64,000 nucleotides of DNA from Burkholderiales bacterium (GCA_036381055.1 DASVDO010000008.1:7177-71176); one strand, 5' to 3'. Positions 59,045 through 61,417 are shown, counted from the stretch's first letter. Program-made: numbers and translations. Notes: generated from the letters alone by a model not told the origin.

Positions 59045-61417
59045 CTACTTGATGCAGACCGAGCGCACTTCCTTGATATGCGTCACCCCGGCCAGGCATT
59101 TCTCCATGCCGTCCTGCTTCAGGGTGCGCATCCCCTCCTCCAGGCTGAGGGCGAGCAGCTCGGCGACGCGCGCGTGCTCCTGGATCGCCTTCTTCAGGCG
59201 GTCGGAGGCGATCAGGAGCTCGTGCAGGCCGCAGCGTCCCTTGAAGCCCGTGCCGCCGCATTTGTCGCAGCCGACCGGCTTGTAGAAGGTGAGCTGGCCC
59301 TTCTCGTTGCCGTAGTGCTTCACCCAGTCGCGGTACACCGCTTCCATGGCGGCCTTCGGGTCGGCCTTGAAGCGCGCGGTGTTCATCAGCTCCTCGCAGT
59401 ACTCGCGCAGGAACGCGGTCAGCTCGGCCGGCTCCGGCGTGTAGGCCTGCTTGCACGAGCACAGGCGCTTGGCGAGGCGCTGCGCCAGGATGCCGAGCAG
59501 CGCGTCGGAGAAGTTGAACGGATCCATGCCCATGTCGAGCAGGCGGATGATCGACTCGGGCGCCGAGTTGGTGTGCAGCGTGGCGAACACCAGGTGGCCG
59601 GTAAGCGAGGCCTCGATGCCGGTCGAGGTGGTCTCCTTGTCGCGCATCTCGCCGACCATGATGATGTCCGGGTCGGCGCGCAGGAACGACTTCATCACCG
59701 CCGCGAAGTCGAGGCCGGCCTTCTTGTTCACCTGCACCTGGCGCAGGCCCTTCTGCGTGATCTCGACCGGGTCCTCGGCGGTCCAGATCTTGGTGTCGGG
59801 CGTGTTGAGCGACTTGAGGATCGAGTGCAGCGTGGTGGTCTTGCCCGAGCCGGTCGGCCCGCAGACGAAGAACAGGCCGTAGGGCTTGGCCACCGTCGCC
59901 TGCAGCTTCTCCAGGTTCTGCGCCGAGAAGCCCATCTTCTCGAGCGGGATCGGCTCGCCGGCGGCGAGAATCCGCATGACGATGTCCTCGACGCCGCCCG
60001 CGGTGGGAATGGTGGCGACGCGCAGCTCGATGTCGAGCGGGCCGAACTTCTTGAACTTGATCTTGCCGTCCTGGGGCTTGCGCTTCTCCGAGATGTCCAG
60101 GTCGCACATGATCTTGATGCGCGCCGCGATCGCCGCCCGGTAGCTCGACGGGATCTCGATGTAGGGCGCGAGCGAGCCGTCCTTGCGGAAGCGGATCTCG
60201 GTCTTGGCCTTGCCCGGGTAGGGCTCGATGTGGATGTCCGAGGCGCCCTGGTTGTAGGCGTCGATGATCACCTTGTTGACCAGCTTCACCAGCTCGTTGT
60301 CGGCCGCCGCCGAGACCTCGTCGCTGCCCGACTCGCCGGCCTCGGCCTCGTCGCCCTCCAGGCCCGAGAGCAGGTCCTCGACGTTGCCCATGTCGATGTG
60401 GGCCGATTCCTGCCCGTAGAACTGGTTGAGCGTCTCCTTCCACTCCTTGTGCGTGGTGACGCGGTAGAGAATGCGCGCCTTGGGGAACACGTTGGAGGCG
60501 ATGCGCGAGGAGCGGATGCGCTCGGGGTCGAGGCACAGCACCACCAGGCCCTCCTTGGTGTCGTCGATCGGCACCCACAGGTTGGCCTCGACGTACTCGC
60601 GCTTCAGGTTCTTCAGCAGCTCGGCCGGCTTGACGCGGTCGGGCTTGAACGGCTCGTAGGGCACGCCGAAGAACTTGGACAGCGCCTGGCCGATCGCCGG
60701 CACCTTGACCTGGAACTCGTCGACCAGCACCTGCTCGATGTCCATCGCCTTCTTGCGCGCCTGGCGCGCGGCGAGCTCGAACTCGCCGGCCGAGAGCACC
60801 GCGTCGGCGATCAGGTAGTCGTACTTGGTCTTGGCGAGGGTGGGCTTCTGGCGCTGCTTGAAGGCGATCGCCAGCGTCTGCGCCAGCTCGGCGACCCCTT
60901 CCTCGGCGAGCGGGCCGAACGGCACGCCGGCCTTGTTGTTGATGATCTGGATGACGCCGATCAGCTCGCCGTTCGCCTGCTCGACGATCGGCGCGACCAG
61001 CTGCTGCTTGGTGCGGTAGCCGGTGCGCTTGTCGACCTCCTGCAGGAAGCGCAGGCTGGGGTTGATGGCGCGCAGCTCGGCGTCGTCGTAGCAGTCCTTG
61101 ATGTTGATGGTCTTCTTGGCGAGCGCCACGTAGCCGGCGATCGAGTGCTCGGCGATCGGCAGCTTCAGGTCCTTGAACGAGTTGAGGCCGGTCTTGACCT
61201 TGGAGACGATCGCCTGCTTGTCCTCGCTCACCGAGTAGATGGTCAGGCGGTCGGCGTTGAAGAGCGCGCACACGTCCGCGCTCACCTCGAGCATGATCTC
61301 GTCGATGTTGCTGGTCGCGTGGATCTTGTTGGTGACCGCCTGGAGCTGCTTCTGGAACGCCAGGCGCGCGCCGACGTCCGTGGTCGCCGAGGCCGGATGG
61401 CTCAGGACTGCGCTCAT
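59045..61417 (-). CDS. GAF domain-fused GspE/PilB-family secretion ATPase
   Basis: The N-terminal GAF domain reads ...DKRTGYRTKQQLVAPIVEQANGELIGVIQIINN, followed by a T2SSE_N-like region. Walker A is GPTGSGKTT, Walker B is DPDIIMVGEMRD and the His box is ATLHTN. The Cys motifs are CSC...CDKCGGTG. GGGGAG lies 6 nt upstream of the ATG. Confidence 0.9.
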   Translation of the reverse strand: MSAVLSHPASATTDVGARLAFQKQLQAVTNKIHATSNIDEIMLEVSADVCALFNADRLTIYSVSEDKQAIVSKVKTGLNSFKDLKLPIAEHSIAGYVALAKKTINIKDCYDDAELRAINPSLRFLQEVDKRTGYRTKQQLVAPIVEQANGELIGVIQIINNKAGVPFGPLAEEGVAELAQTLAIAFKQRQKPTLAKTKYDYLIADAVLSAGEFELAARQARKKAMDIEQVLVDEFQVKVPAIGQALSKFFGVPYEPFKPDRVKPAELLKNLKREYVEANLWVPIDDTKEGLVVLCLDPERIRSSRIASNVFPKARILYRVTTHKEWKETLNQFYGQESAHIDMGNVEDLLSGLEGDEAEAGESGSDEVSAAADNELVKLVNKVIIDAYNQGASDIHIEPYPGKAKTEIRFRKDGSLAPYIEIPSSYRAAIAARIKIMCDLDISEKRKPQDGKIKFKKFGPLDIELRVATIPTAGGVEDIVMRILAAGEPIPLEKMGFSAQNLEKLQATVAKPYGLFFVCGPTGSGKTTTLHSILKSLNTPDTKIWTAEDPVEITQKGLRQVQVNKKAGLDFAAVMKSFLRADPDIIMVGEMRDKETTSTGIEASLTGHLVFATLHTNSAPESIIRLLDMGMDPFNFSDALLGILAQRLAKRLCSCKQAYTPEPAELTAFLREYCEELMNTARFKADPKAAMEAVYRDWVKHYGNEKGQLTFYKPVGCDKCGGTGFKGRCGLHELLIASDRLKKAIQEHARVAELLALSLEEGMRTLKQDGMEKCLAGVTHIKEVRSVCIK

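What the first reader, a model, noticed from the sequence alone, without database searches (positions are those of the whole stretch)
59045..61417. Orphan GspE/PilB-family ATPase with an N-terminal GAF sensor and no adjacent platform or secretin genes
**Seen in the sequence.**
- The protein is 790 aa. A full GAF domain occupies roughly codons 25-190 (nt 60848-61345).
- It is followed by a T2SSE_N-like region (YDYLIADAVLSAGEFELAARQ...).
- The ATPase core is complete: Walker A GPTGSGKTT, Asp box, Walker B DPDIIMVGEMRD and His box ATLHTN. A tetracysteine zinc motif (CSC...CDKCGGTG) is present.
- No PilC/GspF, PilM-Q or GspD-type gene is present within the window. The neighbours are signalling proteins and the pilin.

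**Established knowledge.** Canonical PilB, GspE and MshE lack GAF. MshE and some PilB proteins bind c-di-GMP through an MshEN domain instead.

**Inference.** This is a sensor-gated motor ATPase. It may plug into a pilus machine encoded elsewhere, giving an alternative, signal-dependent extension motor.
Basis: partly seen in the sequence, partly recalled or inferred. Interest (0 to 1): 0.65.

Follow-up and report, generated by a model that had tools for sequence, protein, structure and literature searches.

The report
cAMP-sensing GAF fused to PilB-like motor
A pilus or secretion motor ATPase carries a built-in cyclic-AMP-type sensor and sits in a conserved operon beside the enzymes that make and destroy cAMP, so this unstudied family may be a motor switched directly by cAMP.

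Summary
ORF 59045-61417(-) encodes a 790-aa protein with a GAF domain, a MshEN-like N1 domain and a complete PilB/GspE-type ATPase. No platform, alignment or secretin gene lies in the window.

- **GAF type.** It is the cyclic-nucleotide-binding kind, closest to the cAMP-binding GAFs of Anabaena CyaB2 (E 4e-27). The CyaB2 cAMP contacts are kept and essentially invariant in 81 orthologues.
- **N1 domain.** It has lost the c-di-GMP-binding motif of MshE.
- **Context.** The gene is orphan only with respect to machine genes. In 80 betaproteobacterial species genomes it sits in a conserved cluster. The order is CHASE2 adenylyl cyclase, MBL-fold cNMP phosphodiesterase, an optional cNMP-binding/rhodanese protein, this ATPase, a GAF-HD-GYP c-di-GMP phosphodiesterase and often a sigma-54-driven pilA.

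The architecture is common in databases, with 1-3 GAF copies, and also occurs in Desulfobacterales. It scores below the NCBI PilB, GspE and TfpB thresholds. I found no paper describing it.

My best reading is a cAMP-gated PilB-like motor serving a type IV pilus machine encoded elsewhere, co-regulated with c-di-GMP breakdown. cAMP binding, the partner machine, and whether it is the only PilB are untested.

The parts
63322..64000 (-). C-terminal catalytic part of a CHASE2 class III adenylyl cyclase. The N-terminus lies beyond the window end.
   Evidence: Pfam Guanylate_cyc, E 1.6e-9. The substrate-specifying residues are Lys in DKYIGD and Thr in YTAMGDAVNVASR, the class IIIb adenylyl-cyclase type. 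Lys and Thr are present in 40 of 40 orthologous cyclases. Full-length orthologues carry CHASE2 plus the cyclase domain.
62553..63320 (-). Metallo-beta-lactamase-fold cyclic-nucleotide phosphodiesterase, 255 aa.
   Evidence: Pfam Lactamase_B_2 (7e-21) and PDEase_II (8e-13). The orthologue also hits Anti-Pycsar_Apyc1. The HSHLDH motif is present. The gene is present in 71 of 77 loci with enough flank.
61499..62551 (-). cNMP-binding (CAP_ED) plus rhodanese protein, 350 aa. It is an optional member of the cluster.
   Evidence: Pfam cNMP_binding 167-251 (1.8e-22) and Rhodanese 265-344 (6.5e-15). Present in 35 of 77 loci.
61456..61484 (-). Sigma-70-like promoter candidate in the 81-nt gap upstream of the ATPase gene.
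   Evidence: TTGTGA-17-TATTAT, 9 of 12 matches. It is a consensus match only.
59045..61417 (-). GAF-N1(MshEN-like)-PilB/GspE-type ATPase, 790 aa. This is the finding itself.
   Evidence: Orthologues are 66-93% identical in 80 species genomes.
60848..61345 (-). cNMP-type GAF domain, codons 25-190.
   Evidence: Pfam GAF. phmmer against CyaB2 1ykd gives E 4e-27, followed by PDE10A, PDE2A and PDE5 GAFs. The AF2 model has pLDDT 80-91 here, and the top Foldseek hits are 4mcw, 1ykd, PDE5/2/10/6 and Lcd1-cAMP 5w10. The cAMP contacts R57, T59, V74, D129 and T132 are conserved.
60383..60832 (-). N1 domain with the MshEN/GSPII fold and a degenerate c-di-GMP motif, codons 196-345.
   Evidence: Pfam MshEN 250-339. 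It aligns to M. xanthus PilB residues 8-143, E 8e-4. The relaxed 24-residue motif of Wang et al. 2016 finds no match. Key residues are replaced: G to D in motif 1, and R to D, G to E, G to F and Q to F in motif 2.
59066..60304 (-). ATPase core (N2 plus C-terminal domain), codons 372-784, with Walker A at nt 59837-59860.
   Evidence: Pfam T2SSE, 7e-112. The motifs are intact. The closest solved structures are M. xanthus PilB 3jc8 at 361 bits, Thermus PilF at 350, Geobacter PilB at 329, GspE at 300 and PilT at 112.
57388..59025 (-). GAF-HD-GYP protein, a predicted c-di-GMP phosphodiesterase, starting 19 nt downstream of the ATPase gene.
   Evidence: Pfam GAF plus HD and HD_5. The HD and HHERMDGKGYP motifs are intact. 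Its GAF is 29% identical to the ATPase GAF, E 9e-12. It lies downstream on the same strand in 64 loci and is present in 66 of 73 loci with enough flank.
57273..57288 (-). Sigma-54 promoter consensus upstream of the pilin gene.
   Evidence: TGGCACGGACGTTGCA with no mismatch, 58 nt upstream of the pilin ORF start.
56736..57215 (-). Type IVa major-pilin-type prepilin (PilA-like).
   Evidence: Pfam N_methyl plus Pilin. It has the [22 protein letters not shown] leader and a C-terminal Cys pair. A prepilin ORF follows the HD-GYP gene in 28-35 of 64 loci with enough flank, and never lies upstream.

Best explanation
The gene encodes a catalytically intact PilB-like hexameric motor ATPase. Its usual c-di-GMP-sensing N-terminus has in effect been replaced by a cAMP-type GAF sensor.

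It belongs to a conserved betaproteobacterial cAMP circuit. Upstream lie a CHASE2 Ser/Thr kinase, a PP2C phosphatase and an FHA protein. The core genes are a CHASE2 adenylyl cyclase that makes cAMP and an MBL-fold phosphodiesterase that removes it. Three receptors appear to read the signal: a CAP_ED-rhodanese protein, this GAF-ATPase and a GAF-HD-GYP c-di-GMP phosphodiesterase.

**Proposed mechanism.** cAMP binds in the GAF pocket at R57, T59, V74, D129 and T132. This changes GAF dimerisation or helix packing and passes through the N1 domain to the ATPase ring. The ring is thereby switched on, or recruited to the PilC/PilM platform of a type IVa pilus machine encoded elsewhere. Pilus assembly from the adjacent PilA is thus coupled to a simultaneous fall in c-di-GMP.

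**Shown here.**
- Domain identities and intact ATPase motifs.
- Conservation of the cAMP-contact residues.
- The degenerate MshEN motif.
- The adenylyl-type cyclase residues.
- The conserved gene order.

**Inferred, not shown.**
- cAMP binding itself.
- The direction of regulation.
- The identity of the partner machine.
For: - **Domain architecture and motifs.**
- **GAF type.** The closest sequences are the cAMP-binding GAFs of CyaB2 (E 4e-27), then PDE10A, PDE2A and PDE5 GAFs. The AF2 model of residues 1-375 has pLDDT 78.9. Its top Foldseek hits are cNMP-type GAFs, including cAMP-bound Lcd1.
- **cAMP contacts.** The CyaB2 GAF-B contacts are R291, T293, I308, D356 and N359 (PMC4411481). They map to R57, T59, V74, D129 and T132. 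Their conservation in 81 orthologues is 81/81, 79/81, V/I/L only, 81/81 and 81/81. R57, T59 and D129 are also invariant when Desulfobacterales homologues are added.
- **Cyclase specificity.** The adjacent cyclase has the Lys/Thr pair of class IIIb adenylyl cyclases, here and in 40 of 40 orthologues.
- **Conserved cluster.** The phosphodiesterase is present in 71 of 77 loci, the cyclase in 59 of 72 and the GAF-HD-GYP in 66 of 73.
- **Pilin.** It lies downstream in about half the loci and never upstream.
- **c-di-GMP motif.** It is absent from N1.
- **Precedents.** The cAMP-activated GAF-HD-GYP protein Tlr0485 and the GAF-GGDEF protein Lcd1, and two extension motors on one machine, PilB and TfpB.
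- **Machine genes elsewhere.** Cultured relatives in genera that carry this gene, Sideroxydans and Gallionella, encode PilMNOPQ, minor pilins and PilT/U at other genomic sites (PMC3770913).
- **Selection on the sensor.** The GAF is as conserved as the N1 domain, with mean column conservation 0.77 against 0.70.
Against: - No ligand-binding or activity data exist for any member.
- The NKFDE signature is only partly kept: N160, K162, F167 and E172/E173 are present, but the Asp position is Ala or Glu.
- The closest structural neighbour, the PmGH GAF, has no known ligand.
- The neighbouring HD-GYP GAF has Gly at the R57 position, so the two GAFs may not share a ligand.
- The pilin has its own sigma-54 promoter and is absent from about half the loci. 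This weakens the functional link to pili.
- A Desulfobacterales homologue sits among housekeeping genes with no cyclase or pilin nearby.
- The PilB model scores only modestly above the GspE model, 480 against 438 bits.
- I could not check whether a canonical PilB exists in the same genome.
Confidence: 0.6

Rival explanations
1. It is simply the organism's sole, housekeeping PilB orthologue. It has moved next to pilA, and the GAF is an accessory or dimerisation domain rather than a switch for an alternative motor.
For: - The closest solved structures are PilB and PilF.
- The best NCBIfam model is PilB.
- The gene lies next to a sigma-54-driven, PilA-type major pilin.
- It is very highly conserved, like a core gene.
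Against: - It scores 480 bits against the PilB equivalog cutoff of 675.65.
- It is never adjacent to pilC or pilD in 80 loci.
- Its nearest relatives at 50% clustering also all fail the PilB and GspE cutoffs, so this is a separate subfamily.
- The cAMP-contact residues are invariant, which argues against a purely structural GAF.
Confidence: 0.2
2. It is a motor for a different type IV filament-like system, or a signalling ATPase that controls glycan or exopolysaccharide output. The pilin adjacency would then be incidental.
For: - The GspE score is close to the PilB score.
- The pilin is missing from about half the loci and has its own promoter.
- The Desulfobacterales homologue has no pilin nearby.
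- Sideroxydans and Gallionella also carry MSHA clusters.
- M. xanthus PilB has a signalling role in exopolysaccharide control (PMC5544727, listed).
- A large glycan-synthesis island lies beside the locus.
Against: - No gsp, msh or tad genes lie near the gene in any of the 80 loci.
- When a filament gene is nearby, it is always a T4a major pilin, downstream on the same strand.
- All motor catalytic motifs are kept.
Confidence: 0.15
3. The GAF binds something other than cAMP, such as cGMP or another small molecule, or binds no ligand at all.
For: - The ligands of GAF domains are diverse, and the ligand of the PmGH GAF is unknown.
- The NKFDE motif is imperfect.
- An isolated CyaB2 GAF-B can also bind cGMP (PMC4411481).
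Against: - R57 and T59, the adenine N1 and N6/N7 contacts in CyaB2, are invariant.
- The co-encoded cyclase has adenylyl-type Lys/Thr residues in 40 of 40 cases.
- A cNMP phosphodiesterase and a CAP_ED protein sit in the same operon.
Confidence: 0.15
4. The cluster is a Pycsar-like anti-phage system, made of a cyclase plus cNMP-binding effectors.
For: PADLOC PycC models hit the cyclase domain at 9e-27. Pycsar effector models hit the cNMP-binding domain at about 1e-9. The phosphodiesterase hits Pfam Anti-Pycsar_Apyc1.
Against: - The hits cover only the shared cyclase and cNMP-binding domains.
- No TIR or transmembrane effector is present.
- The cluster sits at a fixed locus across Betaproteobacteria, and protein identity tracks taxonomy at 66-93%. 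That is unlike a mobile defence island.
- The cyclase carries purine (adenine) specificity residues.
Confidence: 0.03

Closest known systems
Type IVa pilus assembly ATPase PilB (M. xanthus PilB 3jc8, Geobacter PilB 5tsg, Thermus PilF)
   Same: It has the same N1(GSPII/MshEN)-N2-CTD layout. Walker A and B, the Asp and His boxes and the Cys4 zinc site are present. These are the best PDB sequence matches, at 329-361 bits.
   Different: - It has an extra N-terminal GAF domain.
- Its N1 lacks the c-di-GMP motif.
- Its zinc subdomain spacer is about twice as long.
- It scores below the PilB equivalog cutoff, 480 against 675.65.
- It is not next to pilC or pilD.
MshE / MshEN-type c-di-GMP-binding ATPases (V. 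cholerae MshE, 5HTL)
   Same: Both are second-messenger-sensing N-terminal extensions on a PilB/GspE-type motor, and N1 has the MshEN fold.
   Different: The 24-residue c-di-GMP motif is degenerate, with its Gly, Arg and Gln contacts replaced. The predicted messenger is cAMP, sensed by a separate GAF domain.
cAMP-binding GAF domains of Anabaena CyaB2 (1YKD), PDE10A GAF-B and Lcd1
   Same: Sequence similarity is E 4e-27 and the fold matches. The cAMP contacts R, T, I/V, D and N/T are kept.
   Different: The output domain is a secretion or pilus motor ATPase rather than a cyclase, phosphodiesterase or diguanylate cyclase. There is one GAF rather than a tandem pair, and the NKFDE motif is imperfect.
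Tlr0485 / PmGH-type GAF-HD-GYP phosphodiesterases
   Same: The gene immediately downstream has this architecture with intact HD and GYP motifs. Tlr0485 is activated by cAMP.
   Different: This is the neighbour, not the finding. Its GAF is only 29% identical to the ATPase GAF and lacks the Arg that contacts adenine N1.
TfpB, the second extension ATPase of Acinetobacter baylyi
   Same: It sets the precedent of an additional PilB-like motor, encoded apart from pilBCD, that contributes to one T4aP machine.
   Different: The window protein scores 396 against the TfpB cutoff of 850. I know of no GAF domain or cAMP link in TfpB (from memory; not checked here).

Membership tests
PilB/GspE-type secretion ATPase superfamily (Pfam T2SSE PF00437) | T2SSE domain above the gathering score, with Walker A, Walker B plus catalytic Glu, and a His box. 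| tested here: met
   374 bits against a cutoff of 24.9. GPTGSGKT at 520, IIMVGEMRD at 585 and TLHTN at 613.
PilB/GspE-type secretion ATPase superfamily (Pfam T2SSE PF00437) | Tetracysteine zinc site in the C-terminal domain. | tested here: met
   C653, C655, C717 and C720 are each conserved in at least 95% of 81 orthologues. The spacing is atypical: CxC here where most orthologues have CxxC, and a spacer of about 61 aa.
PilB/GspE-type secretion ATPase superfamily (Pfam T2SSE PF00437) | Hexameric ring with ATP hydrolysis. | not testable with these tools
   The full-length AF2 monomer model failed, with pLDDT 41.8. No multimer prediction or assay was available.
Canonical type IV-A PilB (NCBIfam TIGR02538 equivalog) | Score at or above the curated cutoff of 675.65. 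| tested here: not met
   480 bits. Ten of its nearest relatives at 50% clustering also fail.
Canonical type IV-A PilB (NCBIfam TIGR02538 equivalog) | Genomic linkage to pilC and pilD. | tested here: not met
   None in the window. None within 10 kb either side in 80 loci.
Type II secretion GspE (TIGR02533) | Score at or above 630.25, and gsp neighbours. | tested here: not met
   438 bits. No gsp genes are nearby.
TfpB (NF053534) | Score at or above 850. | tested here: not met
   396 bits.
MshEN c-di-GMP receptor domain | MshEN/GSPII fold (Pfam PF05157). | tested here: met
   36.2 bits against a cutoff of 23.1. It aligns to the N-terminus of M. xanthus PilB. The AF2 pLDDT is 83-92 over residues 200-335.
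MshEN c-di-GMP receptor domain | [quoted passage not shown] 2016). | tested here: not met
   The relaxed regular expression finds no match. The key Gly, Arg and Gln positions are substituted in both motif positions.
cNMP-binding GAF domains (CyaB2, PDE2/5/6/10 type) | GAF fold closest to known cNMP binders. | tested here: met
   Pfam GAF. 1ykd at E 4e-27. The top Foldseek hits are all of this class.
cNMP-binding GAF domains (CyaB2, PDE2/5/6/10 type) | Ligand-contact residues equivalent to CyaB2 R291, T293, I308, D356 and N359. | tested here: met
   R57, T59, V74, D129 and T132, invariant or conservatively varied in 81 orthologues.
cNMP-binding GAF domains (CyaB2, PDE2/5/6/10 type) | NKFDE signature. 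| tested here: inconclusive
   N160, K162, F167 and E172/E173 are present, but the Asp position is Ala or Glu, depending on register.
cNMP-binding GAF domains (CyaB2, PDE2/5/6/10 type) | Measured cAMP or cGMP binding. | not testable with these tools
   This needs ITC or DSF on purified protein.
Pycsar anti-phage system | Pyrimidine cyclase plus a cNMP-activated TIR or transmembrane effector, in a mobile defence context. | tested here: not met
   PADLOC gives domain-level hits only. There is no TIR or transmembrane effector. The locus is fixed and vertically conserved. The cyclase has Lys/Thr purine-type residues.

The most novel reading that the evidence does not exclude
cAMP binds directly to the GAF domain of a PilB-like motor and gates pilus extension after translation. 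The same cAMP pulse activates the co-transcribed GAF-HD-GYP enzyme to lower c-di-GMP. Together they would form a hard-wired two-messenger switch. It would be fed by a CHASE2 cyclase under Ser/Thr-kinase, PP2C and FHA control, and it is conserved across Betaproteobacteria. Direct cAMP control of a type IV filament motor has not been described. Known cAMP effects on pili act through transcription (Vfr/CRP), and known direct messenger control of these motors is by c-di-GMP.
Probability: 0.4. Interest if true: 0.8.

Novelty: new variant of a known kind. Interest (0 to 1): 0.66.

Why it matters
Extension ATPases are the point at which bacteria decide whether to build a pilus. According to the 2024 review PMC11656802, the known direct controls are c-di-GMP binding to MshEN, the FimX-PilZ pair, and phage or host inhibitors. 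cAMP is known to act only through transcription.

A widespread motor family with a cAMP-type GAF sensor suggests a third, direct route. The family is present in at least 80 betaproteobacterial species genomes, including nitrifiers, iron oxidisers and soil Burkholderiales, and in more distant Desulfobacterales. The GAF takes the place of a lost c-di-GMP motif, and the gene is encoded with its own cyclase and phosphodiesterase.

The idea is easy to test. The conserved operon supplies a defined ligand candidate, point mutants (R57, T59) and natural partners. It would also give a compact example of cross-talk from cAMP to c-di-GMP.

Tried and rejected
- **Exact-match look-up.** Looking up the window protein's own contig found nothing on record. 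I therefore could not read the contig beyond the window. A relative 89% identical, L082, was used instead.
- **Full-length AF2 model.** With 51 homologues at 88% identity or more it failed, with pLDDT 41.8. I made no fold claims from it. A second run on residues 1-375 with a more diverse alignment worked, with pLDDT 78.9. Its pTM of 0.48 means the relative placement of the GAF and N1 domains is not reliable.
- **Literature searches.** I searched for GAF together with PilB, GspE, T2SSE or 'extension ATPase', and for the operon's domain combination. No paper describes this architecture. The library lacks most subscription journals, so this is absence in the searched set only.
- **Pycsar-like defence reading.** Considered and rejected.
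- **Horizontal transfer.** GC drops to 65-67% at 57-62 kb, but GC3 stays at 0.93-0.99. The dip reflects amino-acid composition, so I rejected horizontal transfer as its cause.
- **Phylogeny against PilT, MshE and TadA.** I did not build one because reference sequences could not be imported. I used HMM and PDB bit-score rankings instead.
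Full report
**1. The observation**

The window has 71.6% GC, and real genes stand out by GC3 of about 0.9-1.0. ORF 59045-61417 on the minus strand has GC3 0.98, starts with ATG and encodes 790 aa.

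| Pfam domain | Residues | E-value |
|---|---|---|
| GAF | 38-185 | 6.5e-10 |
| MshEN/T2SSE_N | 250-339 | 6e-9 |
| T2SSE | 372-784 | 7e-112 |

All three hits are above their gathering scores. Walker A, Walker B with the catalytic Glu, and the His box are intact. The four zinc-site cysteines are conserved in at least 95% of 81 orthologues.

The zinc subdomain is unusual. This protein has CxC where 59 of 81 orthologues have CxxC, and about 61 residues separate the two Cys pairs.

Pfam scans of the confident ORFs across all 64 kb found branched-chain amino-acid biosynthesis, Lpt, glycogen, valyl-tRNA synthetase and a large glycan-synthesis island. They found no PilC/GspF, PilM-Q, prepilin peptidase or secretin.

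**2. What kind of GAF**

- **Sequence.** A phmmer search of residues 1-207 against all PDB sequences puts the tandem cAMP-binding GAFs of Anabaena CyaB2 first (1ykd, E 4e-27). Next come PDE10A GAF-B, the PmGH HD-GYP GAF, and PDE2A, PDE5 and PDE6 GAFs.
- **Structure.** An AlphaFold2 model of residues 1-375, built on a 60-sequence alignment, has mean pLDDT 78.9, with 80-91 in the GAF and 83-92 in N1. Its best Foldseek matches in the PDB are the same cNMP-type GAFs, including the cAMP-bound Lcd1 GAF.
- **Ligand contacts.** The published cAMP contacts of CyaB2 GAF-B are R291 (adenine N1), T293 (N6/N7), I308 (stacking) and D356/N359 (N3 via water) (PMC4411481). With a chain offset of 57, which reproduces all of these residues in the alignment, they map to R57, T59, V74, D129 and T132.
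- **Conservation.** In 81 orthologues these positions are R 81/81, T 79/81 (S in 2), V/I/L only, D 81/81 and T 81/81. The SIAG and TGYRT segments are also invariant or nearly so. R57, T59 and D129 stay invariant when Desulfobacterales homologues of about 30% identity are added.
- **Caveat.** The NKFDE signature is only partly kept.

**3. The domain between the GAF and the ATPase**

Residues about 196-345 align with residues 8-143 of M. xanthus PilB, E 8e-4, and hit Pfam MshEN. The fold is therefore the usual N1/GSPII domain.

The relaxed 24-residue c-di-GMP motif of Wang et al. 2016 (PMC5013675) finds no match anywhere in the protein. At the aligned positions, motif 1 has Asp for the key Gly. 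Motif 2 has R to D, G to E, G to F and Q to F. I infer that c-di-GMP binding has been lost. This was not measured.

**4. Which ATPase**

Against NCBIfam the best models are below their equivalog cutoffs:

| Model | Score (bits) | Cutoff |
|---|---|---|
| PilB | 480 | 675.65 |
| GspE | 438 | 630.25 |
| TfpB | 396 | 850 |

Against the PDB the order is M. xanthus PilB at 361 bits, Thermus PilF at 350, Geobacter PilB at 329 and GspE at 300. PilT follows far behind at 112, then BfpD at 101 and CpaF at 30.

A full HMMER scan of 1.84 billion cluster representatives gave 53,193 relatives. Among the top 150, about 35 representatives of 36-58% identity align collinearly from residue about 16 to 790. Others carry two or three GAFs or a different N-terminal region of about 200 aa. 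Ten of these nearest relatives also fail the PilB and GspE cutoffs.

This is therefore a large, distinct PilB-like subfamily with variable N-terminal sensors. It is neither canonical PilB nor GspE.

**5. Context**

The neighbours on the same strand are, in order:

1. The C-terminal part of a class III cyclase.
2. An MBL-fold phosphodiesterase (PDEase_II/Apyc1-like, with an HSHLDH motif).
3. A cNMP-binding plus rhodanese protein.
4. The GAF-ATPase.
5. A GAF-HD-GYP protein 19 nt downstream, with intact HD and HHERMDGKGYP motifs.
6. A canonical type IVa prepilin with the leader [22 protein letters not shown].

The cyclase has Lys in DKYIGD and Thr in YTAMGDAVNVASR. This is the substrate-defining pair of class IIIb adenylyl cyclases; the class rule comes from established knowledge, and the residues are read.

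A scan of one genome per GTDB species returned 80 loci with full-length orthologues of 66-92% identity. They come from Burkholderiales MAGs, Rhodocyclaceae, Gallionellaceae and Sideroxydans, Nitrosomonas, Methylophilaceae, Chitinimonas, Parachitinimonas, Noviherbaspirillum and Herminiimonas. Gene order is conserved:

| Neighbour | Present in |
|---|---|
| PP2C phosphatase (upstream) | 57 loci |
| FHA protein (upstream) | 53 loci |
| Cyclase | 59 of 72 loci with enough flank |
| Phosphodiesterase | 71 of 77 |
| cNMP/rhodanese protein | 35 of 77 |
| GAF-HD-GYP | 66 of 73 (same strand, downstream, in 64) |
| Prepilin, downstream | 28-35 of 64, never upstream |

A relative 89% identical shows the part cut off by the window end: a CHASE2 Ser/Thr kinase, PP2C, FHA and the CHASE2 cyclase. 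All 40 cyclase orthologues that I could parse have the Lys/Thr pair.

No PilC, PilM-Q, secretin or second secretion ATPase appears in any conserved or minority family in these flanks. A Desulfobacterales homologue stands alone among housekeeping genes.

**6. Mechanism**

The simplest model that uses all of this is a local cAMP circuit:

- The CHASE2 cyclase, itself probably under kinase, phosphatase and FHA control, makes cAMP.
- The MBL-fold phosphodiesterase removes it.
- The CAP_ED-rhodanese protein, the GAF-ATPase and probably the GAF-HD-GYP enzyme read it.

For the HD-GYP arm there is a direct precedent in the cAMP-activated Tlr0485. For the motor arm, cAMP binding would change the GAF conformation or dimerisation. 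It would act through N1 on ring activity or on docking to the PilC/PilM platform.

The machine is most likely the type IVa pilus. The only filament gene ever linked to the cluster is a PilA-type pilin. Cultured Gallionellaceae encode PilMNOPQ, minor pilins and PilT/U elsewhere (PMC3770913). Two extension motors on one machine are known from PilB and TfpB.

These last steps are inference.

**7. Weak points**

- The pilin has its own perfect sigma-54 promoter and is absent from about half the loci.
- The HD-GYP GAF lacks the Arg equivalent.
- No biochemical data exist for any member.
- I could not test whether a canonical PilB is present in the same genomes.

**8. Novelty**

The domain combination is already visible in precomputed Pfam annotations. 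Sources name it only 'GspE/PulE family protein' or 'GAF domain-containing protein'.

Five full-text searches found no paper describing a GAF-bearing PilB/GspE ATPase. A 2024 review of PilB regulation does not mention GAF and treats cAMP as a transcriptional input only.

I rate this a new variant of a known kind, with interest 0.66.

Noticed in passing
window 57273-57288 (-): A perfect sigma-54 promoter consensus, TGGCACGGACGTTGCA, lies 58 nt upstream of the pilin ORF. The pilin therefore looks like a classic RpoN-dependent pilA with its own promoter, not simply the last gene of the ATPase operon.
   Followed up: partly
window 31500-56700 (both strands): A large glycan-synthesis island lies next to the pilin. 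It holds several GT2 genes, a GT2+GtrA gene, GT87/TMEM260-like GT-C membrane glycosyltransferases, two DegT aminotransferases, a sulfotransferase, an APS kinase and a methyltransferase. This suggests a sulfated or aminated glycan, possibly used to glycosylate the pilin.
   Followed up: partly
L053:17136-18617 and six other loci: In 7 related loci a Wzy_C-domain protein follows the pilin. It resembles the PglL/TfpO O-oligosaccharyltransferases. This is a different route to pilin glycosylation from the GT2/GtrA/GT-C set in this window.
   Followed up: no
L082:1691-5825, beyond the window end in a relative 89% identical: A CHASE2 Ser/Thr kinase, a PP2C phosphatase and an FHA protein lie directly upstream of the CHASE2 cyclase. 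PP2C and FHA are conserved in 53-57 of 80 loci. The cyclase may therefore be controlled by phosphorylation.
   Followed up: partly
window 59256-59459 (-), protein residues 653-720: The zinc-binding subdomain is atypical. It has CxC here where most orthologues have CxxC, and the two Cys pairs are about 61 residues apart, roughly twice the canonical GspE spacing. The PilB model and the PDB alignments break off at about residue 660-668.
   Followed up: partly
window 57000-62000: Total GC drops to 65-67% from 72-75% nearby, while GC3 stays at 0.93-0.99. The dip comes from low GC at the second codon position (0.39-0.41) in these highly conserved proteins. It is not a sign of foreign DNA.
   Followed up: yes
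window 48100-55500 (-): Gene calls here are uncertain. Long overlapping ORFs have GC3 of only 0.67-0.87, and the Pfam GT2+GtrA hit occupies only the C-terminal half of ORF 52974-54932. The true starts, or possible frameshifts, were not resolved.
   Followed up: no
window 61499-62551 (-), residues 1-160: The N-terminal 160 residues of the cNMP-binding/rhodanese protein have no Pfam match. They could be a second, degenerate cNMP-binding domain.
   Followed up: no
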